64,000 nt of DNA, from UHGV virus genome UHGV-0214148. One strand, 5' to 3'. Under the pieces are notes generated by a model. That model saw nothing but the letters and a program-made list of their open reading frames with translations, did no database searches and was not told the origin of the DNA. A program made the position numbers and the translations under genes. This stretch comes from a virus. Below are positions 32,915-50,416 of this stretch, piece after piece. How positions within the stretch are numbered: position 1 is the stretch's first letter; every line of letters begins with the position of its first letter.

Positions 32915-32976
32915 GCGAAAAAAAAAACGTGCTACTCCTACCCTCTAAGAGGGTAGGAGGTTACTTTATTTTTTTC
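32909..32976. terminator. bidirectional rho-independent terminator
   Basis: A10 run, hairpin CTCCTACCCTC-TAA-GAGGGTAGGAG (32935-32959), then a T-run; lies between convergent genes. Confidence 0.75.
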
Positions 32977-34228: not shown

Positions 34229-34296
34229 AGCTCTTTTCCTCTATAGATTCAAGTCATAGTATGAACTTCGACGCCCACGGATTATAGGAGTAGAGA

Positions 34297-37200
34297 ATGG
34301 CTGTCGTCTTAGACCCACACTTCAAAAAACCGGGGAATAAAATAACCGGTGAAGCGGTCGCCGTCATTGGTACGAAATACCGAATGTTGGTACCTGCCCA
34401 CGCCCCTTTTTTCACCACATCCCTGGTGGTCAAGAGCGGCGGCAAAACACTGACCTTAGGCGACGATTACATTATTACACACCCGTACGAGACCGGTATG
34501 TTGCGCACAGCCTATCTCATTCACGGGATGATTTGGATTGTTAATGACAAATACAAATCGAATTTTACGGTAGATTACCACGCCGTTGGTTGTGGTCAGG
34601 CTACCCAACAACAGATTACCGCAGAACGCGAACTCAATAAAGATAAATACCCGACTACGTGTCAGTGGGACACCGTCATCGGGGACGTTTACTTTCCGCC
34701 GGTCGATATCCAGTTCGATTGGGAGAATTGGAAAGGTGAACTGGAATTAATGCAGGCTATTGCTGGATTAGGCGATTCGTTAGGGGAAGTCGTGAGTCGA
34801 CTTAACCCCATCGCACGCAATACCCTGGATTTAGAATACCGTGCTAACAGCAAGGTTATCACTTCCGAGCAGTATGCCGCATACGACAATAAAGGTGGGT
34901 TCACCTACAACACTACCCGTCATCGTTATAGCTTGAGTTATAAAACTGCAACCTTTAACAACTACGCCCTGTCAGTGAAACATAGAATTCCTGCTATTCT
35001 GCCAGACATGACGAAATTGAATCCAAACGAACAGATCGATTGGATGCTCTGTTATGCTAACGGCGGGGCAAGTATTCTACGGCTGCAGCTAAAACAGCGC
35101 AAAATCTCACTGGTCTTAACGGTCGCTATTGGTAGCGGTTCAACAAACTACGATTATACGTTAATCAACGGTTTAACTGACGATGAGTTAAAAAACGATA
35201 TCGATTTTAGTGTAACCCGTCAACCCGGAAACGGTGTTTACGTCATCGTAGTAAAAACAAATAAACAGACCATGGATTATACATTCAATGTCGATACGCC
35301 ACCTGATGAGTTCTCGGCAGGGTATTCGAAAACGGATGTTGCTAAATGGTTGAAGTCTAAAACGAACATTAACCTGAACTGGTATGCTGGACAAAAAGAT
35401 TATGTTCAAATTCGTTCTTTACCCGGTGCACCAGAACCTGACGTCGATAACGATGTTTACCAGTTAATAGTTAAATACCATCAATTAGTTGAGCAGCTGT
35501 ATCGTAACGCGCCTGCACACGAACACGTTACACGTAAGGACAACCCGCACACCGATACGTGGGGCCCGATCCGTGCGTTACAGCTGAATGGTATTGCGTC
35601 GGATGCCGCGTTAGCTTACGGGAAAACGAAACAACAGTTAACGGATTATGTTAATGCTAAGTACCCAACACAAGCAACGTTAACCGCACAGAAAAAACTG
35701 CTTCGTGAATCGGCGAACAAGAACGTTAACGGCACGATTACCACACTTCCGGGTTTTACTTCGTTCACGACGGAAGTTGATCCGGTTTCGATGTCGAAAT
35801 ACGTGAGTCCTCGTTTTAGCGAAAGCTACGTTAGTAATGGTCACAGGTATCACGGTGCGCTTCGTTACACAGGAACGAAGAGTGGATTCGCCACTTCTTT
35901 TAATGCGGTACCTGCCAACCTGCAAGATATTGACTTTATTGTTACCGGACGTAAAACAGCGTCTGGTAATGAAGCTGTCGGTACGGTTAGCCTACGTTTC
36001 TATCAGAAACCTGGTACTAACTCTGGAAAATTTATCCAGCTTACAGGTGAAATTTCTGCGGGTAAAGTCGGCGTTAAGTTGGAACTGAACGGTTTTTCGA
36101 ATACCACACCGGAAGTTCAGTATCTTTCCCAAGCCCCTAATCCAGCAATACCGGATGGGGATTTTACTCTGCGTTTTCAACTGAAACGCACAGGGAACGT
36201 GTTTGATGTCGTTATTACCATAAACGGCAAGACATACAGTGCACGTGTTAACTTCACTAACATGGACGCTGCACTAGAAGCATTGGAGAATAGCCACCAC
36301 TTTAAATCATTGATCAGTAATGTTGCTGACAACGTCACTATTAGCTCGGGGAATAAAGGTAACACGGTTACCATTAAGAAAGCGCCCGACGTCGTTGACG
36401 GGACCCGTTTAGGTGCCCAGTTTGTCGTTGACCCGAAATCCATTAAGTTTATTGGACAAGGTTCAACCGAGGTTAATGCGGGGAATAACCCTGTAACGTT
36501 TCAAGCAGGTACTAACCAACTTATATTGTATCCTGATGATCGTGGGTTACAGTGGCGTGGTAAGAAACTCTTAGACCCCACTACCGTGGCTCCGTATCTG
36601 CCAGGCAATACCGCGGGCGGTACGGGATTATTCTACGGTACATCTACAACCACGGTAGAGCTTACCGGTAGCGGGATAAAAGCATCGCCGTTCGTAGCGA
36701 CTTTTATTCTCCCTACCGCGACCGATACAACAGCCCTGGCAGCTTGGCAGTTGACCGATGAGTTTGGTACCGCTGAAAACCTTGCAGCAACGCCAGCACT
36801 GATTGAAAAACTCGATGCGGAGTTCACCGGTAAATTAGTTGCGGTTAAATCGTACATTAACGACATGCAACTTACCAGCTCGGTCACTATCGACAAAATT
36901 ACCTTTGGTTTAGGTAACGTTGCGAATACACCCGATGTCAATTTACCGATTTCTACAGCACAACGTGCGGAGTTAGATAAATACTCGCCTAAAGTTCACC
37001 AACACCCGTTTACCGCTTTTGGTACTGGGAACGCAACCACAGCGAAACGTGGTCTGATTAAATTTGGTCTGGATGTGGATGATGCGACTTTAGCACTCGA
37101 TGGGAGTGTGGTAATGGCGCAGACTACCCAGATTGAAAAATTGGAAAGTGCTGTCGGGGGTGTTGACTCGGAGGCACGTCTCGACATTATACGTTTTGGT

Positions 37201-38619
37201 AAGTCTGGTAACGACTTAATTGATGTTACGGTCAAAGACAAAATACTGGTTACACTTCCAGCATCAACGTATTTTATCGGTGGCGAAACATACACCGTGC
37301 CGTTGACGACGATTAACGTCAGTGAACGTTTTCCGAAGTTGAATACAGAAATCTACGCGGGGATTTTTGTTGATATTGTTGACAACAAAGCGAAGTACAT
37401 TATTCACGACAGCTACAGTCAAGCTGAAACGGATACCATGACGCGTGTGGGATTAATCGGCGTCAATGACCTTTCTGAAGTGTTCGTTACAGAGATGCGT
37501 AACGTCACACGGCTGGACGATTTCCGTGAACTGAAAGATCACGCTGCTGACGATAACGCGCATATTCACCGCTCCACGACACGTGCAGTGCTTGGGTTAG
37601 CTAACTTAACGGTAGGTGCGCCCTGCTGGGCTTCGGGACTCCAGGCAGTAGTACGTGGTGAAGCAGATTGGCGTTATGTCGTCGGTGGACAGTATAGAGC
37701 CTTAGACGGGGTGAAATACGACCAGCTCGCATCAAAGTGGGTTTTCGATGCGAAAGGGGTAAGTGATAACCTTCATGGTTTTATTCACAACTTATTCCCG
37801 ACTTTCAAAAACGCAGGAATGCGGGTAAGTTGGGAAACAGAAAGCAACGCAAAAACCGGAACAGTGTTAGAAACTGTTTTAGGTTGTTGGAAGAACACCG
37901 ACGGCGAGTTTATGCGGTTGTCATTACTCATCACTCGCGGTTATCGTTTAACTGACAGTAACGGTGAATATTGTTACGCAGGGTTCGGTTTGAACTTCGG
38001 TAGCGGGAAATCGGTAGTGGTAGGTTTCACACCAACGAAGCGTGTTACAGCTGCACCGTGGAGTTCATTACAACCTGACGTAACGTTTACCCACACCCGT
38101 GGTGCAAACAACGCAATAACGTTTAATGCATCGCTGACTTTAGCTGGCACTGTGTATACTATCGTGGTGTTTTTATCCGCGACAGATAAATACGTAAGCT
38201 GTACGGCAGCAGGGGGAACTACGCAGAAAATCCCATTAGCCGACCGTTTAACCGGGTTCAATATCGAACCTATCGTTAACGATCCGTATACCCCTATTTA
38301 CTACGGTTTAGGGGGACTTTATGAGGATGAGGTTCGTGCCAACATCCGCTCTACAGCAGACAGCGCAACTGCGAACAAAGTCTACGGTACGTTGTTGGAC
38401 TATGTTAGCAACTATTCCTCATTAAATCGAGTACGCGTCATGGAATTGGCCGGTGTCAGCTCAGACCCCGAAACGCTTAATGCGTTAGTGGCAACTGAAT
38501 TTAATAACAGCCTGGCGGATTACGCTGCGTTACCGATACCTCCTTATCTTAACAAGGAGCGCGTAATGTCGTTTATCGACACCAACAATAAAGTGCAGGC
38601 GGTAATCATTCGCGATTAA
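34297..38619 (+). CDS. large fiber-like virion protein 1 (putative tail fiber)
   Basis: 1440 aa, Thr/Gly/Asn/Val-rich. Shares with the next three genes an N-terminal pattern PF[FY]...V....G.DY..[LI]. SD TAGGAG precedes the ATG. Confidence 0.55.
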   Translation: MAVVLDPHFKKPGNKITGEAVAVIGTKYRMLVPAHAPFFTTSLVVKSGGKTLTLGDDYIITHPYETGMLRTAYLIHGMIWIVNDKYKSNFTVDYHAVGCGQATQQQITAERELNKDKYPTTCQWDTVIGDVYFPPVDIQFDWENWKGELELMQAIAGLGDSLGEVVSRLNPIARNTLDLEYRANSKVITSEQYAAYDNKGGFTYNTTRHRYSLSYKTATFNNYALSVKHRIPAILPDMTKLNPNEQIDWMLCYANGGASILRLQLKQRKISLVLTVAIGSGSTNYDYTLINGLTDDELKNDIDFSVTRQPGNGVYVIVVKTNKQTMDYTFNVDTPPDEFSAGYSKTDVAKWLKSKTNINLNWYAGQKDYVQIRSLPGAPEPDVDNDVYQLIVKYHQLVEQLYRNAPAHEHVTRKDNPHTDTWGPIRALQLNGIASDAALAYGKTKQQLTDYVNAKYPTQATLTAQKKLLRESANKNVNGTITTLPGFTSFTTEVDPVSMSKYVSPRFSESYVSNGHRYHGALRYTGTKSGFATSFNAVPANLQDIDFIVTGRKTASGNEAVGTVSLRFYQKPGTNSGKFIQLTGEISAGKVGVKLELNGFSNTTPEVQYLSQAPNPAIPDGDFTLRFQLKRTGNVFDVVITINGKTYSARVNFTNMDAALEALENSHHFKSLISNVADNVTISSGNKGNTVTIKKAPDVVDGTRLGAQFVVDPKSIKFIGQGSTEVNAGNNPVTFQAGTNQLILYPDDRGLQWRGKKLLDPTTVAPYLPGNTAGGTGLFYGTSTTTVELTGSGIKASPFVATFILPTATDTTALAAWQLTDEFGTAENLAATPALIEKLDAEFTGKLVAVKSYINDMQLTSSVTIDKITFGLGNVANTPDVNLPISTAQRAELDKYSPKVHQHPFTAFGTGNATTAKRGLIKFGLDVDDATLALDGSVVMAQTTQIEKLESAVGGVDSEARLDIIRFGKSGNDLIDVTVKDKILVTLPASTYFIGGETYTVPLTTINVSERFPKLNTEIYAGIFVDIVDNKAKYIIHDSYSQAETDTMTRVGLIGVNDLSEVFVTEMRNVTRLDDFRELKDHAADDNAHIHRSTTRAVLGLANLTVGAPCWASGLQAVVRGEADWRYVVGGQYRALDGVKYDQLASKWVFDAKGVSDNLHGFIHNLFPTFKNAGMRVSWETESNAKTGTVLETVLGCWKNTDGEFMRLSLLITRGYRLTDSNGEYCYAGFGLNFGSGKSVVVGFTPTKRVTAAPWSSLQPDVTFTHTRGANNAITFNASLTLAGTVYTIVVFLSATDKYVSCTAAGGTTQKIPLADRLTGFNIEPIVNDPYTPIYYGLGGLYEDEVRANIRSTADSATANKVYGTLLDYVSNYSSLNRVRVMELAGVSSDPETLNALVATEFNNSLADYAALPIPPYLNKERVMSFIDTNNKVQAVIIRD

Positions 38620-38632
38620 GGAGAATTTTTTG

Positions 38633-41600
38633 ATGAAAGCGTATCCTTACGATCCTCGGGGGACGAAAACCGAGAATCACTTCTTAGAGGAGCGTATCAT
38701 CGGGTCAGAAAACAACAACGATCGGGTGGTGATTCTAGACCATCGCCCGTTTTTTGAAGATTTAGTCGTCAGACAACCAGGTTCAACCACCCCACTGAGT
38801 CGTGGGGTGGACTACGAACTGCAATATCAGCTGACGGAACTGGATGACTCGGTAGCAGCCAACGTGTATTGTGGGGTACACCTTATCAACCCTTCCATCA
38901 AAGGCATCGTAACCTTTGAAGGACAAATGCTCGGCGGTACGTTCTACGACCCGTTTGTTGATATTCTCGATGAACTGGTGAAATATTTGAATAACCCAGT
39001 CAGTGCTGACTGGTTGTTATTAGAAGGCAGACCGTCGTTATACCCGGCTACGCCTGCGGCAACGTCCTGGGCGGATTTGCTGAACAAAAAATATTTAGCG
39101 TCGGCAGTTCACGATATTGAATTGAAAACCGACGACGCTAACCAGTTAATTAAAGACAAATTAGCTGAAGTTAAAGCGTTAGTCGCCGCGCTGGGTAAAG
39201 AAATCGAGGCATTTAACTACCCGGCACACATCGCGGAAACCAACCCGCACCAAACTACTTCTGCACAGATTAGCGCACATCCTGTTAACTTGAAAACACC
39301 CGACACCTTTATGGCGTACGGGTTAAAGTTGAAAGCACTGACGGATGAACTGAAAGCGTTTCGTTTACCACAGTCAGTTATTGACACGTATATCTCCCAC
39401 TGGATTTCTTCAGAAGTACGGGGTGTGTTTAACTGTACGGTGTCAGGAAACCGTGCACAATTCCGCTCAAAAAACGGTGAGTCAGAAATCATTTTTGCGA
39501 ATGATGGCTTTACGTTAAAATCCAACGGTTCTGTGGTGTTGGCGGTAGGGCATCTGGAGGGAACGGGTGCAGGACGTTACATTAACTGGCGTGCTGGTAA
39601 AAACACCTTACGTATCGAGTCAACAGGCGATGCTTTAGGGATGAACAAACTCACCCTAAACGGTAACCCGTTACTGACTACCACGGCGTTGATGGAATAC
39701 CAACAAGATCCTGATGCTGGCGGGAGCGGCGGCGGTGACCCTGATGACTCGAAGGTGTACATCGAAGGCCGTAATGGGATTAGCTTCACCGGTAAAGGCT
39801 CTCGGACCGATCCTATCGTGGGTACTATCGACCCGACGAAAGCGACAACCGCTGAAAAAGGTGTTGTTAAGCTTAAAACTGGTAAAGGTACAGAAACGGT
39901 TGGGGTTGCAGCAACGCCAGCGTCATTAACACCTTATTCGACCGACCTATCAGGGTATGTGGCTAAAACGACCATGATTAACGGTAAGCCAATGAATGAC
40001 GGCTCCAGGACAATCACGAAAGCTGACCTGGGGTTAGGGCAAGCGGATAACACCGCAGACCTTGACAAACCGTTGTCAACCGAGTTAACTAAGGCGGTTA
40101 GCGGTCTAGCAGATGTAGGCCATCATCACGATTGGTCGGAGTTAGGCATTTATAAAGCTTCTCAATCTGTTTACGGTATTGGACGTTATGCAACTAACCA
40201 GAACGGTTTGGTTGAAAACCGTGCAGTGGTACCGAACATCTTAAAAGAGCTTTCGGCACGTTTAAGTGTGGTCGCTGCGGCAATTGCAAATGCGAAAGAA
40301 GGAACAGTAACGGATTTCGCTGCTGTAAAAGGCGCAGACTGGCGATTTAATAGCCAGGGTACGGCAATCTCCGTTCAGGATTTGAAATATTTCTATTTGC
40401 TGGACGGCACGAAAGGTGACAGTACCGTTACCGGTGCGATTGACCTGCAAACCACCCCGATGTTTAACTGGTTCTCACCGAATAACCAACTTGAGCTGAC
40501 TTGGGCTACGGGTAAGGTGAGTAACGGTACGGGAATCAACTGGACGGGTATTGAAGAACCGCCATTGATGGGGTTCCAGTCTGTCCCGGTAGGTAAAACC
40601 GCTACGCAGATGGGTGACCAGTCAGTTGTTACTGTATTGGCAAAAACGCGTGTAAAAGCATACCAACCGAAGCTCTGGGTTTATGCTGCTGGGGGTGGTC
40701 CGGTTACGGTTTACATTAACGGTATCCAGGCCGCTTCAGGCGAGTCCCCACTCGTTGCGGTGTACGAAACGTCGTCAGACGTTGAAAATTACACAGTGGC
40801 GGTTAAAGCCGAGTGCAGCGACACGACTAAATCCGCAGCGGTACAGTTCGAAGTTTACGATGGTGACTACCCCGTTTATTTCAGTGGTCCTGAAACGCGC
40901 GTAGAGCTTCTCCAGGAGTTTGTTACAACGCACGTAGGGGTTCGTCACTATTTGTACGTTAACATGCTCACAGGCTCTTTGTATTCGCGTGCTGAACCGA
41001 TTCAGAGTATTGCCGTTGACCCAGAGCGCGGTTATATCGGATATGTTGATATCGTTCCTGGTCAGTCTTACGCGAATAAAACTGTGGGGTTTGAAACCAC
41101 GTTTGATTTCGGGAAAAGTGCGGAAGTTAGCGAGCACATCAGCACTCGTAAGGCACACGGACTCAGCGCTGTTGACTGGGCGTTAACGGATAACCCACGG
41201 CTGCCGTTATTAAACCGTGCTATTGCTGAACCAAGAGCGTGTATCTTTAGGAAACCGTTAGCAACCGCTACAGGGGATGTTTTCCATCTTGTCAGTCGCG
41301 GCCTTTATACCTACGCACACAACCAAAACGTGAAGTCGAGTCTTCAATACGTTGTGATACCTGAAGGTGCTACGCCGTATTGTTGGTTTACACCATTTAA
41401 CCCGAAAGAAAACAACGCACCGACATTCGAAGGCTCGTTTGCGTTCGATGTTGACGATGTTGGTGGAACGCAAGCCCTTGCTGCTGCGCCGGATTTGGTT
41501 CTATGCACGTCAACGCAAGGTAGCAGCGTTAAACGTCGCTATCTGCGCATTGACCTAACTACCAAAACCTGTAAGTTGGGGATTGGTTCCCGTTCAGATT

Positions 41601-42814
41601 CTGCTGTTACGGATATTCCGTTAGTGATGGAGGAGTCTGGGGAAACGGCAGTGGCCGCAACGTTTAAGGATGTGTTGTTCAACGGTGAGGAAACCAACCC
41701 CGCGACGCTCGACTTGATAGGTTGGGGTGCCAGCCGAGATAAAATTTCTGCAAACCATGCACCTCGTGGCATGATTCGGTATCGTTACAACGTAAACACA
41801 CGGGTATTACGTTTAGCACTGACGTTCTCACAGTTCGGAACGACAACAGTTAAACATCGACAGCTGGAGATTCAATTCCCGTTCGATTTAGTGGATTATT
41901 TCACTGGCGACGGTGTGGGATTGTCGTTTAAAGAACTGTCTGCGAAATGTCGTGTAACGATTAGTCACGCGCTGATTGATCCGGCTACGAGTAACGTCGA
42001 CATTGATAAGTACCATTACTTACGTTCGTTGTTCGAATCGTATCTGGATTCTTCCGTTGGGTATTTGGCTGATACCAAAGACGTTGATTTTAGTCAGTCT
42101 GTGATTGACCCTGCGACTTACGAGGTTAGTCAAAAATACCGCGTTACAGAAAGCATCGCGCTGCCAACCGGCCAGGGAAGTGTTGCTGTTTCCCATGACG
42201 GCCAGTTGCCTGCGCAGTTCTTTGACCGTAAGCTGTCTCGTGGTGCCTTGATGGCCAAGAAAGGTGAACTCAACGCTTCCTGGAATAATGAGTGGAGCAC
42301 GACTAAAGCTGCTGCGAGTCGTTATCGCCATAAACTCATTCTACGCTTTGCACAAGGTGCTGATAAACAGCAGTATCGCGTTGCAAAAGTGGCCGGGACG
42401 GTGAAGTCTAACTGGCCGGGTAAAGTGATTATTGGTGATGCCGGGAAGGACCCGTATGTATCGGCTATTGATAGCGTATCTTTTGCGCTTTCGACCGCCT
42501 CTGATACAGGTAAAGCGATTACTCTTACGCCAAAGGACTTACGTGTAGGTCAGGACATTTATATTGTCTTAGAACCACCCGGCAATAATCCAGAAGGTTA
42601 TGAACTTAACTTCACTTGTTCGTTAGATGTCACTGACGAGAAAAGTGTCCGTCAAGATCAACTCAATGCACAGAGTTTCGAACTCCGTAGCGGCGAAAGT
42701 CAGTTCTTAATGGAGAAACGCAACCCGTACCACATCACGAGTAAAGCGTGGAAGTGGATTTTGGCTGTACTGAAACGTGAACTTAACGGGAAGCAGTTAG
42801 GGGATCGTACTTAG
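38633..42814 (+). CDS. large fiber-like virion protein 2 (putative tail fiber)
   Basis: ~1393 aa; N-terminal RPFFEDLVV...RGVDYEL pattern; SD AGGAG 10 nt upstream; abuts fiber 1. Confidence 0.55.
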   Translation: MKAYPYDPRGTKTENHFLEERIIGSENNNDRVVILDHRPFFEDLVVRQPGSTTPLSRGVDYELQYQLTELDDSVAANVYCGVHLINPSIKGIVTFEGQMLGGTFYDPFVDILDELVKYLNNPVSADWLLLEGRPSLYPATPAATSWADLLNKKYLASAVHDIELKTDDANQLIKDKLAEVKALVAALGKEIEAFNYPAHIAETNPHQTTSAQISAHPVNLKTPDTFMAYGLKLKALTDELKAFRLPQSVIDTYISHWISSEVRGVFNCTVSGNRAQFRSKNGESEIIFANDGFTLKSNGSVVLAVGHLEGTGAGRYINWRAGKNTLRIESTGDALGMNKLTLNGNPLLTTTALMEYQQDPDAGGSGGGDPDDSKVYIEGRNGISFTGKGSRTDPIVGTIDPTKATTAEKGVVKLKTGKGTETVGVAATPASLTPYSTDLSGYVAKTTMINGKPMNDGSRTITKADLGLGQADNTADLDKPLSTELTKAVSGLADVGHHHDWSELGIYKASQSVYGIGRYATNQNGLVENRAVVPNILKELSARLSVVAAAIANAKEGTVTDFAAVKGADWRFNSQGTAISVQDLKYFYLLDGTKGDSTVTGAIDLQTTPMFNWFSPNNQLELTWATGKVSNGTGINWTGIEEPPLMGFQSVPVGKTATQMGDQSVVTVLAKTRVKAYQPKLWVYAAGGGPVTVYINGIQAASGESPLVAVYETSSDVENYTVAVKAECSDTTKSAAVQFEVYDGDYPVYFSGPETRVELLQEFVTTHVGVRHYLYVNMLTGSLYSRAEPIQSIAVDPERGYIGYVDIVPGQSYANKTVGFETTFDFGKSAEVSEHISTRKAHGLSAVDWALTDNPRLPLLNRAIAEPRACIFRKPLATATGDVFHLVSRGLYTYAHNQNVKSSLQYVVIPEGATPYCWFTPFNPKENNAPTFEGSFAFDVDDVGGTQALAAAPDLVLCTSTQGSSVKRRYLRIDLTTKTCKLGIGSRSDSAVTDIPLVMEESGETAVAATFKDVLFNGEETNPATLDLIGWGASRDKISANHAPRGMIRYRYNVNTRVLRLALTFSQFGTTTVKHRQLEIQFPFDLVDYFTGDGVGLSFKELSAKCRVTISHALIDPATSNVDIDKYHYLRSLFESYLDSSVGYLADTKDVDFSQSVIDPATYEVSQKYRVTESIALPTGQGSVAVSHDGQLPAQFFDRKLSRGALMAKKGELNASWNNEWSTTKAAASRYRHKLILRFAQGADKQQYRVAKVAGTVKSNWPGKVIIGDAGKDPYVSAIDSVSFALSTASDTGKAITLTPKDLRVGQDIYIVLEPPGNNPEGYELNFTCSLDVTDEKSVRQDQLNAQSFELRSGESQFLMEKRNPYHITSKAWKWILAVLKRELNGKQLGDRT

Positions 42815-42900
42815 GACAGACTGCCTGCGGGCAGTTGTGTGTCCGTAGGTAACCCCTCCCTGTAATGGGGAGGGGTATCCATTTTATTTAAAAGTAGGAG
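42815..42900 (+). terminator. intra-operon hairpin/terminator-like element
   Basis: CCCCTCCC-TGTAATG-GGGAGGGG hairpin followed by TATCCATTTTATTT between fiber genes 2 and 3. Confidence 0.45.
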
Positions 42901-42908
42901 TCTTTACG

Positions 42909-45900
42909 ATGCCGAGAGAAGACGCGGCGCAGTTTAACGGTACGCTAAGCACAGCGACGTACCCTAACCGATTTAACGTGGTCATTCCGCCTGAAGGACC
43001 TTTTTATCGTATCGGATTAAAACTCACAGTAGCCGACGATACCGCGCCTAACGGACGTCGTACTCTGATTGAGGGGCTGGACTACTATTTAGGCTATTAC
43101 TTTAAAGAACTCGCCGAAGCTGAACAAGATCAGATTTATGGCGGGTTTATGTTGCTTACTGCAACAGAAATCGAATATGAGATTTTAGGGGTAGCACGGC
43201 AGTATCGTGTACCGCAATCTGAAATCGGGAAGTTCTTAGTTCGTACTGACCTGAAAGACCCACGTAACGTGGACTGGTCGGAGTTAATGGCGTACGCGCC
43301 GGTTATTCAACCAATCGACCCCCCTGCTAACTTAGAAGAAGCTATTCTGAGGGACGAGGTCGTTAAAGCGTTGAACGATATCCGCAAGAAAATCATTCAG
43401 CGTTCAACAGAGTTAGATGCGGCCTTCACCGAAGTCACTAACCTTATTTACGAGAACGGTAAAAAGATTTTCGATGAAGAACTATACCAACACCACCTTA
43501 ATCCTAACGCTCACCAGTATACGACCAATGACGTTGGGGCCCTTCCGGTTTTAGGACGTGCTGTTGACGCTACAAAAGCGTTTGGGTTGACAATTGACCA
43601 ACTGGCTACGCTGATGGGTTCGGCGGGCATTGAGCAATCAGACGTTGAACAGCTAATGGGTGAAGCCCTCGGTACCGTTTACGGTCGTTGGGGCACCACG
43701 AACGGTAACGAACTAACGTTTAAAACACCGGGTGGACACATCATCAGCATCCGTGGTGATAAGTGGTTAATTACCTCCCCGCAACCGTTAGTGATTAAAG
43801 CAGACCAAGACAACAACGAATCCGGTTTGGCGGTTGAGTTTAGTGCGGGACTGAATACGCTTTGGGTACACTCTGGGTCAGAACAGGATGTATTAGCACC
43901 GGTCTATAACTCTGTGTATCTCGTTACACCAGAAATGGTGAACATGTACCTGACGTCTGTAACGTTACTTGAAGCGAATGCCTATTTCAAACCGTCAGAC
44001 ACCGTAAAACCGTACGGTACAGCGAAGCAGTCTAACCCACTAACGTTGAACGCGAATATTCCCACAGCAACCGAGTCGGTTTATGGGGTGTTTTCGATTA
44101 CGAATATCGCAACCTCTGTAGCGCTAGGCACTGCTATTTCCCAAAAGGCTGTGACCGAGTTAAAAAACCGGTTGGACTTGTACGTTGACGACGACTACAC
44201 GGTTAACGGTAGAGGGTTTGTTAAGACAGGCGACAACATGGTGTTAACCTTAACGAAGGCCGATTTCGGTATCGATAAGATGAATAACACCACACCCATC
44301 GCTAAACCGGTAACAAAAGCATTAGCGAACGTGCTGAAAAATAAAAGTTTGAAGGTACACACGCACACTACCGCTGATTTGGATAATGTCCCGATTGGTA
44401 GCGCAACAGTGGACGGTATCTTACAGCTGTGGGATGCGATTGATACCACGAATGATAAAGCCGTCACATCACGCCAAGGGTGGCTGTTCGCAAAAGAGAT
44501 TAAGAAGGTCTCTGATAAACTGAATACCCTCTTGCCCGCATGGACAACGGCCGGGAGCAAATATACCAACAATTCGATATTGCCGATCTTGTCGATGGGT
44601 AATTACGAAGGTTATGGTAAAAACATGGATGCGCTCCAGATGGTTATAGGGGTACAACAAGGTAAGCTTTATGCTTTAATTAGCTCTAAATCCGCCCTTC
44701 CGGGAACCGAGGGTATTTATTACGCCGTTGCCGGGTTAAAAAACGACAAAAGTCTTGGTGAAATTTACAAAACAACGTTCCGTTATAAGCCGAAAGGGTT
44801 AGAGACGAATTATCCTGGGGTGGAACTAAAAGAAATTACCGTTACGGGTACCGAAGCATTTATAGCGAAAGGCAGCGACGATAATTACTATTTAGTTAAA
44901 CTGAACGGTTCAATGGATTACACCAAACATACCGATGTCAGGTTGGTAACTTTCTCAGAATTTGTTTCAGAAACAACATGGGAATTTGTGCCGAATATGT
45001 TCATGGATCGTGTGGTCATAGCCGATAACGGCGTCTATGTTTTGCGTACGATGCTAATGGCCGATCTGAAAAACAATAGTCTGGTGGACTACATTAAGGA
45101 TACTCCGCAACCTATGTTCCGTGTTGGGTTATTGCGACTTAATAAAACCGATCGGTTTGAACAGGTTGATTTAAGCTCTACACGAAAAATCGGTAAGTGT
45201 GCCGATTTGGTTGAACCTGGCGCGTTCGATGTAGATAATCCGAATACGAAGCGTCTTGCCTACTTCACTGCGGAAGGCAAAGCGTTGTGGACAGTGAATT
45301 TACAATTAACTAGAGGGGTGTCAAGATGGATAACGCCCGTTGTTAAGGACGGTAATCTGTTAACCGTCGGCGTGTCTGGCGTTTGTCTTGGTTTTTCTTC
45401 AACGAAAGGTACCACATTCGGGCCATGGAATGGTGCTTATCGTCTCGACCTATTAACCGGGGAGGTTGGGTTAGAGACAACTAACATCTTCCCAATCAAA
45501 ATCGATACTACAGGTTGCTACTTAAAAGACGGAACAAAAATAGAGCTGAAATGGAAATGGGCTACTCGAAGTTCTGGCTATATGGCCGACAATAGAATCT
45601 GTGTCGGTGATATGGTTTATTCTTGCTGCTGTTCGACAGAAAAACAACTTGCACCGTCTCTCCATTACCAGAAACTCCCAGAAGGAGTTAGTTATCTGGA
45701 CTATGTTAAGTTGAGTGCGGGGTATGAGGGGCAATCTACGTTTGAAAATCGGATAAACCCTGTGGTGGGTTCGGTGTGGAAACCGTCTATGACTCTACCA
45801 TTGTTCTTCCCAGGAACAAACAAAGTATGGCTTAAACATCAAAAAACGGCTTATTTCATTGAAGCCGAATATGATAAAGATACGACTTATGGTTATCCTG

Positions 45901-48095
45901 GATACGGCGGGTTTGGACCAACATCCCGCCGTGTTGAAAAAAAAGCGAACGAATACGGCGTATTGACAAATATACCGCTGGTTGTTACGCCAGACATACC
46001 GAAAGGTCTACTAGATGGGGCTTACTTTATCGGTGCTGAAAGTAAACCATGTAAAGTTGTTTACGGTACCACTACGGTGGCTAGTGATCGGTTGTCTATC
46101 GATGCGGCAGAATGGGCGAAGTTGACTAATATTGTTCAGTCCAGCCAGTTCTCTGGGGCTTCTAACGGCAACGCCTATGAGCGGATTAGCGTAGCTAAGA
46201 CCAAAAAGAACAACTACAGTTTGTCCTTTTGGGTGCTTGGTCAAACGATGTCTGGTGGTCCGCTTTGTATCGCGATAGTGAGTCTTATCTATAAAGACAC
46301 TGACGGGGTAAATAAGTTTGCTTTTTACTTCTTTCAGGTAAAACCGACTATAACCAACGGGGTCATAAGGTTCGTTAGTTCGGAAGCGAGAATGATGACG
46401 TTCAGGGAAAAAATGGCCAGTAACGCCATTAATCTCTCACCCACAGCTTTTAATGGTGAACTTAAACAACGCTCCGGTCAAGTTTTCCTTTATTCGCAAG
46501 ACGGACAAAAGTTCAGATTCTCAATACATAACCTGGTTGGCGGGAATCTTGTAGGATCAGAGATTTCTTTTGCTTTTGGGATAAACTTGACTAAAAAAGG
46601 AGAATGGTTTACCGGCGAAATTCATCGGGCGTGGGGCTATACGTATACGCTGAATAATACATCTGAAGTCTATATACCCGATCTCTCGGGCATCGCGCTA
46701 TTGACTTGTAACTCGGAAGATTTAAACGAGTTGTATCTCGGTGGCGAACAGTATAGAATCTCTGATTTGTTTAACAAAAAATATACTGTTATCGATAAGA
46801 TTATTATTGGCGGCGTACAAACACAGAGCGGTTGGAATTTCTATCTGACGGAGGAAACCGAGTTAAGTTTTGGAAATAAAAGATATACCGTTCCAAGATG
46901 GTCCGTTGATTTAAGCGATGAATTCCCGACTAATCACGCTAACCAGACATTCTACGTTTATGCTGAAGTGGTCGGTTCTACTGCCCAATACCGCATCGGT
47001 TTAGAGCAGTTAGCTGATACCTCGTCGAGACTGTTTGTTGGGACAGTAACCACTGATTCGAACCGTATTACGGATATCAGTATCGATAAAGTAAAACGGT
47101 TAGGTCGTGTAAAAGAGCTGGAAAATCATGCCTCGGTTGTTGATCAGCACGATGTGGCGCAGGCGTTCGACAGGAAAACTGGTCCACTATTAACAGTGGT
47201 TAATAAACCCGTTAAAGCCATTACAGCATCTGCGAGCAAGGGTGCTGGGTATGTCGATGGCCAGAAATGGAATACGTTGTCCGGGATTGCAACGCGGCCC
47301 AGGTTGCCGGTACAGGAAACCTATTCAGGTTATAAAAGTATCAGCAGGGTGGCGTATGAGAACTGCGCTGACCAGTTCTGGCAGAAAGCGGTTGCTGCGA
47401 ACGTTGCAGCGGCTACTGCTTCTGAGAACAAACAAGCAGCAACCGCGAACATGAAGTGGCTGGGCGCGTATACGAGACCGACTACCGGTGCGAGTGTGTG
47501 TCTGGTACTAAGTCTACGTGTTAAAGTACCTGGTAATCCCGGCACCGCTAATCGTAGACTGAAAATCAGGCTTGCGGCTCCGACAGGTATAACTGAAGTT
47601 CGTTACGGGTTAAATCAGTCTGGCGGTACGATGGCTGAACAGACAGTAACGTTGACTGCCAACAGTTATCTGGAAAAAGAGCACGCCGGATTTAAGCCAG
47701 CCGAAGAAGTTCGTGTTCATGCTACCTTTGTCATTCCAAAAAATGAATACGAGAGTTACCGTACGAAGTTCGGTGCGGTTCAGTTGATTGACGTTGAATC
47801 GAACACTGTCATTAAACAGACAGATATCGACACACCGTTTTTCGTGTACACCGCCACGGAGCAAGCGGCACAATCTGGTTTGGTGTATAAAGCGGTTAAG
47901 AGTCAGTTTCGTCAACTCCCGGCTCAACCTGTCGTCATTGTAACTGATGGACAGACAGGGACTACGCCACCGGTGAAAACCTCGTTTGCTGACGGGACAT
48001 TAACGGTCTACGTGGCAACCACGTACGACGCGGTTAACCCAGCACAAACACGCGATATCGACAAGCTCCAGTTCAATCTTATGTTTACATCTTAA
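42909..48095 (+). CDS. large fiber-like virion protein 3 (putative tail fiber)
   Basis: 1728 aa; N-terminal GPFYRIGLKLTV...LIEGLDYYLG pattern; SD AGGAG precedes the ATG. Confidence 0.55.
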   Translation: MPREDAAQFNGTLSTATYPNRFNVVIPPEGPFYRIGLKLTVADDTAPNGRRTLIEGLDYYLGYYFKELAEAEQDQIYGGFMLLTATEIEYEILGVARQYRVPQSEIGKFLVRTDLKDPRNVDWSELMAYAPVIQPIDPPANLEEAILRDEVVKALNDIRKKIIQRSTELDAAFTEVTNLIYENGKKIFDEELYQHHLNPNAHQYTTNDVGALPVLGRAVDATKAFGLTIDQLATLMGSAGIEQSDVEQLMGEALGTVYGRWGTTNGNELTFKTPGGHIISIRGDKWLITSPQPLVIKADQDNNESGLAVEFSAGLNTLWVHSGSEQDVLAPVYNSVYLVTPEMVNMYLTSVTLLEANAYFKPSDTVKPYGTAKQSNPLTLNANIPTATESVYGVFSITNIATSVALGTAISQKAVTELKNRLDLYVDDDYTVNGRGFVKTGDNMVLTLTKADFGIDKMNNTTPIAKPVTKALANVLKNKSLKVHTHTTADLDNVPIGSATVDGILQLWDAIDTTNDKAVTSRQGWLFAKEIKKVSDKLNTLLPAWTTAGSKYTNNSILPILSMGNYEGYGKNMDALQMVIGVQQGKLYALISSKSALPGTEGIYYAVAGLKNDKSLGEIYKTTFRYKPKGLETNYPGVELKEITVTGTEAFIAKGSDDNYYLVKLNGSMDYTKHTDVRLVTFSEFVSETTWEFVPNMFMDRVVIADNGVYVLRTMLMADLKNNSLVDYIKDTPQPMFRVGLLRLNKTDRFEQVDLSSTRKIGKCADLVEPGAFDVDNPNTKRLAYFTAEGKALWTVNLQLTRGVSRWITPVVKDGNLLTVGVSGVCLGFSSTKGTTFGPWNGAYRLDLLTGEVGLETTNIFPIKIDTTGCYLKDGTKIELKWKWATRSSGYMADNRICVGDMVYSCCCSTEKQLAPSLHYQKLPEGVSYLDYVKLSAGYEGQSTFENRINPVVGSVWKPSMTLPLFFPGTNKVWLKHQKTAYFIEAEYDKDTTYGYPGYGGFGPTSRRVEKKANEYGVLTNIPLVVTPDIPKGLLDGAYFIGAESKPCKVVYGTTTVASDRLSIDAAEWAKLTNIVQSSQFSGASNGNAYERISVAKTKKNNYSLSFWVLGQTMSGGPLCIAIVSLIYKDTDGVNKFAFYFFQVKPTITNGVIRFVSSEARMMTFREKMASNAINLSPTAFNGELKQRSGQVFLYSQDGQKFRFSIHNLVGGNLVGSEISFAFGINLTKKGEWFTGEIHRAWGYTYTLNNTSEVYIPDLSGIALLTCNSEDLNELYLGGEQYRISDLFNKKYTVIDKIIIGGVQTQSGWNFYLTEETELSFGNKRYTVPRWSVDLSDEFPTNHANQTFYVYAEVVGSTAQYRIGLEQLADTSSRLFVGTVTTDSNRITDISIDKVKRLGRVKELENHASVVDQHDVAQAFDRKTGPLLTVVNKPVKAITASASKGAGYVDGQKWNTLSGIATRPRLPVQETYSGYKSISRVAYENCADQFWQKAVAANVAAATASENKQAATANMKWLGAYTRPTTGASVCLVLSLRVKVPGNPGTANRRLKIRLAAPTGITEVRYGLNQSGGTMAEQTVTLTANSYLEKEHAGFKPAEEVRVHATFVIPKNEYESYRTKFGAVQLIDVESNTVIKQTDIDTPFFVYTATEQAAQSGLVYKAVKSQFRQLPAQPVVIVTDGQTGTTPPVKTSFADGTLTVYVATTYDAVNPAQTRDIDKLQFNLMFTS

Positions 48096-48135
48096 CGCCA
48101 CGGGACAAGGACGTCTCGGATTAAGGAGAGTGGCC

Positions 48136-49335: not shown

Positions 49336-49345
49336 CTTTATTACA

Positions 49346-49391
49346 GGAGGAACTATGCTTATGGGCGTAGTCCTCCATTCTTTTTTATTTT
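49346..49391 (+). terminator. rho-independent terminator between fiber gene and peptide genes
   Basis: GGAGGA...TCCTCC stem followed by ATTCTTTTTTATTTT, ending 9 bp before the first precursor-peptide start. Confidence 0.65.
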
Positions 49392-49399: not shown

Positions 49400-49798
49400 G
49401 TGATGGCGATCAGTGTTAAAAATGTACGTGACCGAATCACCAACGTAGAGAACCAAATGGCAACTGGCCCACGTGTTGATCCGCAAGTTGCGTCGAAAGC
49501 ACATAATGCCGCCGACACTTTTTCGGGTTGGACGCCAAGTCGGTTAGACTGCGGGGGAAGTTGCAGCTGGACGTGCTCAAACGGCTGTACGCACGGCTGT
49601 ACGAGTTGTTCGGGCACCTGTACGTCAGTATGTGTAGGTAGCTGCTCCTCTGCGTGCGGTAACCAGTGTACTGGATGTAGTTCAACATGTTCCGGCGGCT
49701 GTTCAGGTTGCAGTGGGACCTGTGGGGGTGCTTGCTCGGGCCGTTGTTCTACGGGTTGTTCTGGTGCTTGCTCTGGTGGCTGTTCTGGCCCAACCTAA
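49400..49798 (+). CDS. Cys-rich precursor-like peptide A (leader plus CxxxC-repeat core)
   Basis: 132 aa. ~49-aa leader (AISVKNVRDRITNVENQ...SRLD), then a core starting CGGSCSWTCS with ~21 Cys, mostly at 4-residue spacing and separated by Gly/Ser/Thr. SD AAGGA upstream. Confidence 0.65.
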   Translation: MMAISVKNVRDRITNVENQMATGPRVDPQVASKAHNAADTFSGWTPSRLDCGGSCSWTCSNGCTHGCTSCSGTCTSVCVGSCSSACGNQCTGCSSTCSGGCSGCSGTCGGACSGRCSTGCSGACSGGCSGPT

Positions 49799-49808
49799 GA
49801 GGTGAAAA

Positions 49809-50207: not shown

Positions 50208-50209
50208 TT

Positions 50210-50416
50210 GTGATTAGCCTTAAGAACCTTCGTGATCGATTAGTAACAGCGGAAGGGTATATTACGACCGCTAACGCAAACAACTATATTGCAAACCAGG
50301 GCACCGTGTCTTCAACCAATAACCTTGCCGGTTTACCTTTAAGCCATTATAACTGTAACGGCGGATGTAGCTGGTCGTGTAGCGGTAGCTGTAGTAAAGG
50401 TGCGGGGGGAAGGTAA
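50210..50416 (+). CDS. Cys-rich precursor-like peptide C (short-core paralog)
   Basis: GTG start 2 bp after the peptide B stop, with GGGAGG inside the end of gene B as SD. 68 aa: leader VISLKNLRDRLV...SHYN, then core CNGGCSWSCSGSCSKGAGGR. Confidence 0.55.
   Translation: MISLKNLRDRLVTAEGYITTANANNYIANQGTVSSTNNLAGLPLSHYNCNGGCSWSCSGSCSKGAGGR

What the first reader, a model, noticed from the sequence alone, without database searches (positions are those of the whole stretch)
34297..49391. Four consecutive fiber-like genes with a shared N-terminal module, ending in a terminator just before the peptide cluster
Proteins of 1440, 1394, 1728 and ~400 aa follow each other on the plus strand. All four begin with a similar pattern (PFF/PFY ... 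V ... G.DY.L), consistent with a shared attachment module on different distal domains (a multi-fiber or branched-fiber set). The last has a long heptad coiled coil. A rho-independent terminator (49346-49391) separates this block from the Cys-peptide genes by only 9 bp, so the peptide cluster may be expressed by attenuated read-through with the fibers. That physical linkage hints the modified peptides may be fiber- or virion-associated.
Basis: partly seen in the sequence, partly recalled or inferred. Interest (0 to 1): 0.65.

Follow-up and report, generated by a model that had tools for sequence, protein, structure and literature searches.

The report
Jumbo-phage baseplate fibre gene set
These four genes are the tail-fibre set of a giant Salmonella/Erwinia-type phage, each starting with the same baseplate-anchoring module already described in phage phiKZ, so the finding is real but largely known biology.

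Summary
Four consecutive + strand genes (A 1440 aa, B 1393, C 1728, D 399) all begin with one N-terminal module. D carries a ~140-residue heptad coiled coil. A hairpin plus U-run terminator lies at 49346-49391, 8-11 nt before the first Cys-rich peptide gene.

The block is the counterpart of SPN3US gp170/169/168/167 and of the phiKZ gp131-135 paralogs. In SPN3US these are mass-spectrometry-confirmed tail proteins. [quoted passage not shown] The window's gp130 homologue is the divergent neighbour, 32966-34228(-).

New here:
- A, B and C belong to the gp131 lineage and D to the gp135 lineage.
- Phages carry 2 or 4 such paralogs, never 1, 3 or 5. This suggests A·B·C plus D3 per fibre base (inferred).

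The proposed link to the peptide cluster is untested:
- Hairpin terminators follow most genes in this window.
- SPN3US rSAM enzymes were not found in virions.
- Most relatives outside this clade lack the cluster.
- However, a non-orthologous rSAM cluster sits at the same spot in Ralstonia phage RP12.

Verdict: a new member of a known kind, of low-to-moderate interest.

The parts
32966..34228 (-). Homologue of phiKZ gp130 / SPN3US gp171, transcribed divergently from the fibre genes. In phiKZ this peripheral-baseplate protein lies directly above the fibre attachment sites.
   Evidence: It is 76.7% identical to SPN3US gp171. BLASTP gives 4e-12 to phiKZ gp130, 2e-15 to 201phi2-1 gp215 and 7e-20 to Goslar gp30. 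phmmer gives 9e-9 to PDB 9xqd_L, PHIKZ130. The role comes from PMC13250141.
34297..38619 (+). Fibre protein A (1440 aa), orthologue of SPN3US gp170, of the gp131 lineage. It runs: N-domain aa 1-163; variable cassette 1 at aa ~165-380; helix plus H..NPH at aa ~385-420; window-specific cassette 2 at aa ~505-700; shared stalk with HxH up to aa 923; distal module aa 970-1135 shared with C; divergent C-terminus.
   Evidence: Cassette 2 is absent from five relatives, has no match in INPHARED phages and has only two partial hits among 5.8 billion proteins.
38633..42814 (+). Fibre protein B (1393 aa from ATG), orthologue of SPN3US gp169, of the gp131 lineage. It has the N-domain, helix, NPH (aa 204), a tail-fibre motif region (aa ~405-507, HHH at 497) and then an ~870-aa divergent distal part.
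   Evidence: (phrog_8078 full length; tail-fibre PHROGs at 405-507).
42815..42908 (+). Conserved tandem GC-rich hairpins followed by a U-rich tract and the Shine-Dalgarno sequence of C. This is a terminator-like boundary inside the fibre block.
   Evidence: The terminator scan hit 42852-42876. The folds reach -45 to -51 kcal/mol in five phages. The consensus fold has 27 pairs, 3 of them with compensatory changes.
42909..48095 (+). Fibre protein C (1728 aa), orthologue of SPN3US gp168 (listed as essential or expected essential), of the gp131 lineage. The N-terminal ~507 aa are shared with B and A. The module at aa 1294-1464 is shared with A.
   Evidence: Essentiality is from PMC5694885 Table 1 and PMC5105663.
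48136..49335 (+). Short fibre-base protein D (399 aa from ATG), orthologue of SPN3US gp167, of the gp135 lineage. It runs: beta-sandwich N-domain (aa ~17-105); helices 158-202 ending in H..N(V/P)H; a 140-residue heptad coiled coil (aa ~221-359); a second NPH unit; and a short tail.
   Evidence: The orthologue is a tail protein by mass spectrometry.
49346..49391 (+). Intrinsic-terminator-like hairpin (stem 49346-49376) plus U-run (49378-49391) after D. The loop contains two TATG motifs (49354-49357 and 49360-49363).
   Evidence: A hairpin is present at the same place in six relatives, with CTATG/CTATATGG kept in the loop and a variable U-run. The TATG late-promoter core is from PMC4666361.
49403..50416 (+). 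Three Cys-rich CXXX-repeat peptide genes (131, 132 and 68 aa). They are neighbours of the fibre block, not shown to be part of the fibre system.
   Evidence: TIGR04114 at 19.4 bits against a cut-off of 20; phrog_6085.

Best explanation
The four genes encode the peripheral-baseplate tail-fibre set of an SPN3US/Erskinevirus-like jumbo myophage of the phiKZ-related (Chimalliviridae) group. They are paralogs of phiKZ gp131/133/134/135.

Shown at the sequence or model level:
- Each protein starts with a ~110-residue beta-sandwich domain, followed by a linker and an amphipathic helix ending in an H-x5-NPH motif.
- A, B and C continue through a shared ~300-residue stalk carrying generic tail-fibre motifs and an HxH site, then diverge into large, fast-evolving distal regions. 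These are presumed to be receptor-binding.
- D continues as a ~20-nm coiled coil.

Inferred by homology with the phiKZ cryo-EM structure:
- Six of these N-domains and their six helices form the base of each fibre.
- The base docks beneath the gp130 homologue encoded divergently next door.

Inferred here about stoichiometry:
- A, B and C are a triplication of the gp131 lineage, and D is the single gp135-lineage gene.
- Phages have either 1 or 3 genes of each lineage.
- Each fibre base is therefore most likely one A·B·C heterotrimer plus a D homotrimer. This is the mirror image of the phiKZ proposal (gp131x3 + gp133·gp134·gp135).

Transcription:
- The block is punctuated by ordinary hairpin terminators after B and after D.
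- The terminator at 49346-49391 is a normal gene boundary of this genome, not a dedicated attenuator.
For: Homology and synteny:
- The gene order is the same as SPN3US gp171(-)/170/169/168/167 and Asesino gp191(-)/190-187.
- The same four-gene array occurs in Vibrio phage pVp-JHP1101, with 1:1 orthology.
- It corresponds to phiKZ gp130(-)/131-135 and 201phi2-1 gp215(-)/216-220, which are annotated as paralogs.

Shared N-terminal module:
- The distant-only profile gives E = 1e-35 to 2e-8 for exactly these four ORFs.
- With D residues 1-215 as query, 1269 cluster representatives match. Among the 150 best listed, the match begins within the first 20 residues of nearly every target, and the targets are 166-1560 aa long.

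Structure:
- AlphaFold2 gives a beta-sandwich at pLDDT 80-91, the helices, and a 139-residue helix.
- phiKZ cryo-EM shows six gp131-like N-domains plus a six-helix bundle under gp130, with 12 fibres per virion (PMC13250141).

Virion location:
- SPN3US gp167, 168, 169 and 170 give 880, 1591, 1715 and 1082 PSMs in virions, against 5, 5, 16 and 8 in tailless heads. All are scored 'Tail'.
- phiKZ gp131-135 all lack transposon insertions (PMC12676376).

Receptor-binding signature:
- Identity to orthologues falls from 70-86% at the N-terminus to 15-40% at the C-terminus.

Stoichiometry inference:
- N-domain paralog counts are 4 or 2 in all 15 loci examined, never 1, 3 or 5.
- SPN3US PSM per kDa is D 20.2, B 11.5, C 8.5 and A 8.0, against 11.7 for the 12-copy portal. 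So A, B and C are near 12 copies each and D is about twice that or more.
- NPH-to-HxH spacing is 293 (B), 284 (C) and about 289 (A without cassette 2).
Against: - No solved structure of the N-domain is in the PDB copy. Only the gp131 C-terminal propeller (4GBF) is present. The phiKZ assignment itself rests on docking predicted models at ~4.5 A.
- The D:A/B/C abundance ratio is about 2-2.5, not 3. Spectral counting is rough: the gp130 homologue gp171 gives only 5.3 PSM/kDa.
- HxH and fibre motifs in each of A, B and C would also suit three separate homotrimers.
- No sequence similarity links any distal region to a characterised receptor-binding or enzymatic domain. Pfam gave nothing for A-C, and PDB searches gave nothing.
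- Function in this particular phage is untested.
Confidence: 0.85

Rival explanations
1. The four proteins are independent homotrimeric fibres or spikes. Each uses the common N-domain as its own adaptor to a separate site, giving a multi-receptor 'Swiss-army' set as in CBA120, phi92 or phiKp24, rather than one hetero-hexameric base.
For: - A, B and C each carry generic tail-fibre motifs and an HxH site, which are typical of trimeric fibres.
- The large divergent distal parts look like separate receptor binders.
Against: - phiKZ cryo-EM shows six N-domains of mixed paralogs per site and only two kinds of site.
- Three long fibre types do not map onto two site types.
- Paralog counts of only 2 or 4 are expected for two trimers per site, but not for free addition of independent fibres.
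- SPN3US A, B and C abundances are near the 12-copy portal, not the 18-36 copies expected for homotrimers.
- All phiKZ paralogs are individually required.
Confidence: 0.25
2. The Cys-rich peptide genes are expressed by attenuated read-through of the terminator after D, and the rSAM-modified peptides are fibre- or virion-associated.
For: - Only 8-11 nt, including the Shine-Dalgarno sequence, separate the U-run from the peptide start. Transcription must therefore originate upstream of or within the hairpin.
- The adjacency and shared strand are conserved in all six SPN3US/Erwinia-type relatives examined. The maturase is found in phages of this clade only, as 61 full-length records.
- A non-orthologous rSAM/SPASM cluster with small precursor-like ORFs sits directly after the last fibre paralog in Ralstonia phages RP12 and RP31.
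- The peptides are unannotated or mis-framed in SPN3US, so virion proteomics could not have detected them.
Against: - Terminator hairpins follow most genes here, including genes that are surely co-expressed, so the hairpin says little.
- The cluster is absent after the fibre block in the Vibrio, Goslar, phiKZ, 201phi2-1, FLC9, BUCT660 and MJ359 phages.
- SPN3US gp163 is scored 'Non-virion', and gp161-166 are absent from the virion list.
- Leader-versus-fibre profile comparison gives probabilities below 2%.
- The leader motif is not enriched in 146 fibre-family proteins.
- The end of a fibre module is a common insertion hotspot for accessory genes (general knowledge).
Confidence: 0.12
3. The hairpin after D is a combined terminator and late promoter. 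The phage non-virion RNA polymerase initiates at the TATG in the loop, so the peptide/rSAM genes form their own late transcription unit, independent of fibre read-through.
For: - The phiKZ late-promoter core is 5'-TATG-3', with G as +1 (PMC4666361).
- CTATG or CTATATGG is kept in the loop of the hairpin in all six relatives, although the stems differ.
- TATG also lies in the short upstream regions of A (34260) and of the 299-aa gene (50436), but is absent from most other intergenic hairpins.
- Sigma-70-like sites are fewer than expected by chance, 14 against 25.8, as expected for a phage that uses its own polymerases.
Against: - A 4-nt motif is weak evidence. In phiKZ, TATG is necessary but not sufficient.
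- No transcript mapping for this phage group was found in the literature searches run.
- Promoter rules for SPN3US-type phages are unknown.
Confidence: 0.3

Closest known systems
phiKZ gp131-gp135 baseplate fibre paralog family (201phi2-1 gp216-220)
   Same: - The N-terminal domain, helix and NPH unit are the same.
- A tandem + strand array lies next to a divergent gp130 homologue.
- The proteins are virion tail proteins, and each paralog is required in phiKZ.
- Cryo-EM places six N-domains plus a six-helix bundle at each of 12 fibre sites.
   Different: - Here the long gp131 lineage is triplicated (A, B and C, 1393-1728 aa) and the short gp135 lineage is single (D). phiKZ has one gp131 and three short paralogs.
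- There is no small gp132-like gene.
- No detectable similarity exists to the gp131 seven-bladed propeller, 4GBF.
- D has a 140-residue coiled coil.
SPN3US 'Paralog family C' (gp168, gp169, gp170) plus gp167
   Same: - These are direct orthologues in the same order. D is 77% identical to gp167. Over the first 100 residues, A, B and C are 71-74% identical to their SPN3US orthologues.
- They are mass-spectrometry-confirmed tail proteins.
- They are described as baseplate or tail-fibre candidates similar to phiKZ gp131.
   Different: - The published family lists three members. gp167 (D) is not included, although it carries the same N-domain.
- Window A is 203 aa longer than SPN3US gp170 (1440 against 1237 aa), owing to a ~196-aa cassette unique to this lineage.
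- The distal regions are only 15-45% identical, implying a different receptor specificity.
T7 gp17-type N-terminal fibre/tailspike adaptor domains (also CBA120 TSP4-N, Carin-1 Dpo31-N)
   Same: Both are a small N-terminal beta-rich domain that fixes a fibre to the tail, followed by a helical or coiled segment. These were the recurring top fold-search matches for the N-domain model.
CXXX-repeat peptide / radical SAM-SPASM maturase systems (TIGR04114/TIGR04115; PapB-like ranthipeptide maturases)
   Same: The downstream neighbours are three peptides with long C-x-x-x repeats and two rSAM enzymes. The 440-aa enzyme matches TIGR04115 (6.5e-33) and PapB (1.2e-33).
   Different: The scores are far below the curated cut-offs: 114.7 against 350, and 19.4 against 20. 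The cluster is phage-encoded, lies next to the fibre genes, and has no shown link to the fibres.

Membership tests
phiKZ gp131-like fibre paralog family | gp131-like N-terminal domain at the extreme N-terminus | tested here: met
   The profile from phiKZ, 201phi2-1 and Goslar only gives D 1e-35, B 1.5e-21, A 1.4e-19 and C 1.9e-8, with no other window ORF. tblastn of D against phiKZ-type gp135 gives 2e-8 and against 201phi2-1 gp220 gives 5e-17.
phiKZ gp131-like fibre paralog family | Amphipathic helix after the N-domain (the six-helix-bundle element), ending in an H..NPH motif | tested here: met
   In alignment A1, H209 is nearly invariant and the consensus reads H....NPH..T..Q. AlphaFold2 predicts helices 158-202 in D. 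In A the unit lies at aa ~385-420, after an inserted cassette.
phiKZ gp131-like fibre paralog family | Tandem array of paralogs adjacent to a divergently transcribed gp130 homologue | tested here: met
   32966-34228(-) is the gp130/gp171 homologue. The same layout was seen in 14 related loci.
phiKZ gp131-like fibre paralog family | Location in the virion tail, at the peripheral baseplate or fibres | not testable with these tools
   It cannot be tested for this phage. The orthologues SPN3US gp167-170 are scored 'Tail' by mass spectrometry. phiKZ gp131 is at the baseplate periphery, with the N-domains docked under gp130.
phiKZ gp131-like fibre paralog family | C-terminal seven-bladed beta-propeller (a feature of gp131 itself, not of gp133-135) | tested here: not met
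   phmmer of A, B and C against all PDB sequences found no match to 4GBF at E <= 0.01. 4GBF is present in the library. This was a sequence test only; the distal folds were not modelled.
Hetero-hexameric fibre base (two trimers of N-domains) | Six N-domains per fibre site drawn from two lineages, each as a homotrimer or a heterotrimer | tested here: inconclusive
   Paralog counts are only 2 or 4 in 15 loci. SPN3US PSM per kDa is D 20.2 against 8.0-11.5 for A, B and C, with the portal at 11.7. No multimer model or structure was available.
Intrinsic (rho-independent) terminator | GC-rich stem-loop directly followed by a U-run, downstream of a stop codon | tested here: met
   The site has a 13-bp stem, dG -22.6 and z -3.4, followed by UUCUUUUUUAUUUU. 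A hairpin is conserved in six relatives. The simple scanner missed it because of a bulged stem. Termination efficiency is not testable here.
T7 gp17-type N-terminal fibre adaptor fold | Significant structural superposition on gp17 residues 1-150 | tested here: inconclusive
CXXX-repeat rSAM peptide system (TIGR04114/TIGR04115), the neighbouring cluster | Precursor and maturase reaching NCBIfam curated cut-offs | tested here: not met
   TIGR04115 scores 114.7 bits against a cut-off of 350. TIGR04114 scores 19.4 against 20. The cluster is related, but not a member by the curated thresholds.

The most novel reading that the evidence does not exclude
The rSAM-matured Cys-repeat proteins encoded right after the fibre genes are functionally tied to the fibre apparatus. 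They might be cross-linked structural add-ons, or fibre maturation or receptor-interaction factors. They would have escaped virion proteomics because they are unannotated or mis-framed in reference genomes. The support is a recurrence: two non-orthologous rSAM/SPASM peptide clusters occupy the same position, immediately downstream of the last gp135-type fibre paralog. One is in the SPN3US/Erwinia clade and the other in Ralstonia phages RP12 and RP31.
Probability: 0.12. Interest if true: 0.7.

Novelty: new member of a known kind. Interest (0 to 1): 0.3.

Why it matters
The four proteins most likely determine what this giant phage binds, which matters for host-range prediction and for phage-therapy engineering of SPN3US-type phages.

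The family and its anchoring module are already described, so the block itself adds little. Two modest points go beyond the literature read here.

First, the gp131-type and gp135-type lineages each appear as 1 or 3 genes. That gives a simple rule for fibre-base composition: two trimers, each homo- or heteromeric. The rule predicts an A·B·C heterotrimer plus D3 in SPN3US-type phages. It can be tested directly with multimer prediction, absolute-quantification mass spectrometry or cryo-EM.

Second, radical-SAM peptide clusters recur at the end of the fibre module in two distant clades. Combined with the mis-annotation of the peptide genes, this gives a concrete reason to re-search existing virion proteomes.

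Tried and rejected
- **Pfam on A-C.** No family was found. D matched only generic coiled-coil families below their cut-offs.
- **PDB sequence searches.** The four proteins gave nothing useful. The N-domain profile hit only a short W..P..FPP..H.H fibre motif in 9d93 gp4. No gp131-like N-domain structure is in the library.
- **Peptide leaders resembling fibre sequences.** I suspected a fibre junction motif of the form NAxxLxG...HY. hhalign gave probabilities below 2% against A-D and against the gp132-like small proteins. The motif had 0 strict matches in 146 fibre-family proteins. Rejected.
- **Internal duplication in A.** Cassette 1 against cassette 2 gave BLASTP E = 0.14, so a duplication is not supported.
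- **Origin of cassette 2.** There was no hit in INPHARED phages and only two partial hits in the 5.8-billion-protein set. Its origin is unresolved.
- **Homologues of A's C-terminal 516 aa.** Only 4 close hits were found. That was too shallow for a useful model, so the distal folds were not predicted.
- **Alignment of the post-D hairpins.** MAFFT/RNAalifold on six phages registered them poorly because of indels. The individual folds were used instead.
- **Orthology of the RP12 cluster.** Only rSAM-core similarity was found (1e-5 to 1e-8), and ORF075 did not match the 299-aa protein.
- **Sigma-70 promoter scan.** There were fewer sites than in shuffles, so it was uninformative for this phage type.
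- **Literature on SPN3US radical SAM genes or phage CXXX-repeat systems.** Nothing relevant was found.

Full report
**What is in the sequence**

The region holds four consecutive + strand ORFs:
- A: 34297-38619, 1440 aa
- B: 38630-42814
- C: 42909-48095, 1728 aa
- D: 48130-49335

Orthologue N-termini and Shine-Dalgarno spacing put the true start of B at ATG 38633 (1393 aa) and of D at ATG 48136 (399 aa).

The gaps between genes are 13 nt (A-B), 94 nt (B-C), 40 nt (C-D) and 67 nt (D to the next gene). A 420-aa gene lies divergently just upstream, at 32966-34228 on the - strand.

**Where the window comes from**

Megablast finds only short ~76% matches, to Erwinia phage Asesino, phiEaH2 and Stratton and to Salmonella SPN3US-type phages. 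The window is therefore a new relative of the SPN3US/Erskinevirus group of jumbo phages.

- The closest protein relatives (89-93% identical) come from a Logan metagenome contig and from Salmonella, E. coli and Proteus assemblies.
- That Logan contig carries the same 1440/1393/1727/399-aa block.
- Gene order matches SPN3US gp171(-), gp170, gp169, gp168, gp167 and Asesino gp191(-), gp190-187.
- The same order is seen in Machinavirus, Derbicusvirus and a Vibrio jumbo phage.

**Is the shared N-terminal module real?**

Yes. Pairwise BLASTP is convincing for B-C (3e-19) and B-D (1e-5) but marginal for A, so profiles were used.

- A profile built only from phiKZ, 201phi2-1 and Goslar proteins recovers exactly the four window ORFs among 159 ORFs. 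The E-values are 1e-35, 1.5e-21, 1.4e-19 and 1.9e-8.
- PHROG 2163 ('virion structural protein') hits the N-terminus of all four.
- The 26-sequence alignment has nearly invariant F43, Y66, G107 and H209. Its consensus reads YP.DP.G...N ... PFY ... G.DY ... VGG ... W......P..FPP ... H.....NPH.
- hhalign of orthologue alignments shows the similarity is more extensive than reported. A378-923 aligns with B164-519 (3e-18), and B32-518 with C24-506 (5e-30). A distal module, A970-1135, aligns with C1294-1464 (4e-11). D shares only the N-domain, the helix and the NPH unit (B4-214 with D8-217, 6e-11).
- The module is widespread. With D residues 1-215 as query, 1269 cluster representatives match at E <= 1e-3 among 1.84 billion proteins. 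Among the 150 best listed, the match begins within the first 20 residues of nearly every target, and the targets are 166-1560 aa long. That is the signature of a conserved anchor on variable bodies.

**Structure of D**

AlphaFold2 (mean pLDDT 73.6) predicts the following:
- a beta-sandwich at residues ~17-105 (pLDDT 80-91);
- helices at 158-173 and 177-202;
- one uninterrupted helix at 221-359 (pLDDT 84-92).

A single heptad register covers ~215-365, with 72% hydrophobic a/d positions against 40% overall. A second NPH unit closes the coil.

**What it is**

This is the phiKZ gp131-135 paralog family.
- 201phi2-1 gp216-220 are annotated as mass-spectrometry-verified virion paralogs.
- phiKZ-type KTN4 has the same array after a divergent gp130.
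- The SPN3US literature names gp168-170 'Paralog family C'. It calls them baseplate or tail-fibre candidates similar to phiKZ gp131, absent from tailless particles, with gp168 listed as essential or expected essential (PMC5694885 and PMC5105663).
- SPN3US Table S2 (PMC10052503) gives virion PSM sums of 880 (gp167), 1591 (gp168), 1715 (gp169) and 1082 (gp170). Tailless heads give 5, 5, 16 and 8. All four are scored 'Tail'.

The 2026 phiKZ structural atlas (PMC13250141) reports fibre attachment sites beneath gp130. [quoted passage not shown] The authors interpret this as gp131x3 + gp133 + gp134 + gp135, at 12 sites per virion.

The window's divergent neighbour is the gp130 homologue. It is 77% identical to SPN3US gp171, gives 4e-12 to phiKZ gp130, and gives 9e-9 to PDB 9xqd_L. 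In phiKZ TnSeq, none of gp131-135 tolerates insertions (PMC12676376).

**How it most likely works**

- Shown: the domain architecture, and homology to a family with experimentally located members.
- Inferred by homology: the N-domain and helix of each protein join a six-membered fibre base under the gp130 homologue.
- Inferred from sequence: A, B and C extend through a shared stalk into divergent distal regions. The stalk carries tail-fibre PHROG motifs at B405-507, A842-912 and C399-516, and HxH at B497, C484 and A901. Identity to orthologues falls from 70-86% at the N-terminus to 15-40% at the C-terminus, which is typical of receptor-binding proteins.

Window A also carries two cassettes looped into the conserved frame.
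- Cassette 1 (aa ~165-380) is SPN3US-like, unlike the Asesino sequence, and missing in Caitlin.
- Cassette 2 (aa ~505-700) is absent from the five annotated relatives, from all INPHARED phages, and from almost all of 5.8 billion proteins.

**A stoichiometry hypothesis (inference)**

- N-domain comparisons show two lineages. A, B and C are all closest to the first gene of other arrays (phiKZ gp131, 201phi2-1 gp216, Goslar gp29). D is closest to the last gene (gp135, gp220, Goslar gp25).
- Fifteen loci were scanned, the window included. N-domain paralogs number 4 in ten of them: the window and its Logan relative, five annotated SPN3US-type phages, the Vibrio phage, phiKZ and 201phi2-1. They number 2 in five: Goslar, FLC9, RP12, BUCT660 and MJ359. 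The count is never 1, 3 or 5.
- This fits two trimers per base, with each lineage contributing a homotrimer (one gene) or a heterotrimer (three genes). phiKZ would be gp131x3 + gp133·134·135. This phage would be A·B·C + D3.
- SPN3US PSM per kDa (D 20.2, B 11.5, C 8.5, A 8.0, 12-copy portal 11.7) agrees in direction. A, B and C sit near 12 copies and D is higher. The ratio is about 2-2.5 rather than 3, and spectral counts are rough.
- The rival is three independent homotrimeric fibres. It is favoured only by the generic trimer motifs and by weak fold resemblance of the N-domain to podovirus fibre adaptors.

**The terminator and the peptide cluster**

The hairpin and U-run at 49346-49391 are real. 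A hairpin occupies the same place in six relatives, although the U-run varies. It is not special, however.
- Nearly every intergenic gap of 40 nt or more in this window carries a GC-rich hairpin, usually followed by a U-run.
- A conserved tandem hairpin with compensatory changes splits the fibre block itself between B and C.
- The loop of the post-D hairpin always retains CTATG or CTATATGG. TATG with G as +1 is the phiKZ late-promoter core (PMC4666361). The downstream genes may therefore have their own start site.

Downstream lie three CXXX-repeat peptides and two rSAM enzymes. The enzymes resemble TIGR04115 and PapB but score far below the curated cut-offs.

Evidence against a fibre link:
- The cluster is missing after the fibre array in seven other phage groups.
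- SPN3US gp163 is scored 'Non-virion', and gp161-166 are not in the virion list.
- The peptide leaders show no similarity to the fibre proteins.

Evidence keeping it open:
- The peptide genes are unannotated or mis-framed in SPN3US, Asesino, Caitlin and others, so proteomics could not have found them.
- In Ralstonia phages RP12 and RP31, a non-orthologous cluster of three rSAM/SPASM enzymes and small precursor-like ORFs follows the last fibre paralog, again after a hairpin terminator.

An insertion hotspot at the end of the fibre module explains this as well as a functional link does.

**Verdict**

The 'shared attachment module / fibre set' reading is supported and corresponds to a described family, so this is a new member of a known kind. 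The read-through and virion-peptide idea remains speculative. Interest is low to moderate. The useful residue is a testable rule for fibre-base composition and a concrete lead on mis-annotated Cys-repeat genes next to fibre modules.

Noticed in passing
window 49403-50416 (+); L002 (SPN3US) 19275-19667, 19678-20082, 20098-20304; L001, L003-L005 equivalents: Three CXXX-repeat Cys-rich peptide genes are conserved in all six SPN3US/Erwinia-type relatives. Public annotations largely miss them or call them in the wrong frame or strand. For example, SPN3US gp166 is an overlapping 111-aa ORF in another frame, and Caitlin gp176 is on the opposite strand.
   Followed up: partly
L012 (Ralstonia phage RP12) 21279-28924: Directly after the two fibre paralogs (ORF072 and ORF073) and a hairpin terminator lie several genes. 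These are ORF074 (125 aa, with HTH motifs), an unannotated 65-aa ORF (21815-22009) ending in NCNCNCAC, ORF075, and three rSAM/SPASM enzymes. The best match is PapB-like at 125 bits. The cluster is not orthologous to the window's cluster. It was found only in RP12 and RP31.
   Followed up: partly
window 35809-36396 (A residues ~505-700): A ~196-aa cassette is inserted in fibre protein A. It is absent from five annotated relatives, has no tblastn hit in 50,697 phage records, and has only two partial hits (Proteus mirabilis and E. coli assemblies) among 5.8 billion proteins. The Logan relative L010 also has a 1440-aa A.
   Followed up: partly
window 42815-42908: Two adjacent GC-rich hairpins plus a U-tract lie between fibre genes B and C. 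They are conserved with compensatory base changes in five phages. They are absent in pEa_SNUABM_38, where B and C are 3 nt apart.
   Followed up: yes
whole window, e.g. 6594-6652, 11908-11997, 15580-15640, 17107-17172, 23157-23222, 23832-23887, 58687-58757: Almost every intergenic gap of 40 nt or more holds a strong GC-rich hairpin, usually followed by a U-run. Terminator-like structures therefore punctuate the genome gene by gene.
   Followed up: partly
window 27052-27181 (-), 63301-63383 (-), 31113-31533: A repeated element reads AATAATTTCAGATATATATTACTTAGGTGAG(A/G)GTACAAAAGCTCTCACTTAACGAAAA..TTTTAGGAGAA. A related TAATATATATCTGAAATCAATT lies at the third site. The TATATATTAC core followed by a hairpin resembles, from memory, phiKZ-type early promoters. 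It was not tested.
   Followed up: no
window 34260-34263, 49354-49363, 50436-50439: TATG, the phiKZ late-promoter core, occurs in three places: the short region upstream of fibre gene A, twice in the loop of the post-D hairpin, and upstream of the 299-aa gene. Most other intergenic hairpins lack it.
   Followed up: partly
L009 (Goslar gp29, gp25), L012 (RP12 ORF072/073), L013, L014; window D residues ~311-368: The helix-NPH unit (profile positions ~170-224) is repeated up to five more times along the shorter fibre proteins of two-paralog phages, and once more at the C-terminus of D. It looks like a repeating shaft unit.
   Followed up: no
window 54215-54886 (+) and 54954-56118 (-): The last gene of the rSAM cluster has a DUF4376 domain (4.8e-11) and weak tail-fibre PHROG hits. 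In the near-identical Logan contig, the two following - strand genes carry DUF7941. The Goslar preprint links that domain to abundant virion filaments at the peripheral baseplate. SPN3US proteomics, in contrast, scores the apparently corresponding gp160 as a head protein; that correspondence is judged from gene position only.
   Followed up: no
PMC5694885 text versus its Supplementary Table 1: The paper's text lists gp161 in head Paralog family B, but its table lists gp160. This is probably a typographical slip. It matters because gp161 is the last gene of the rSAM cluster and is not in the virion list.
   Followed up: yes
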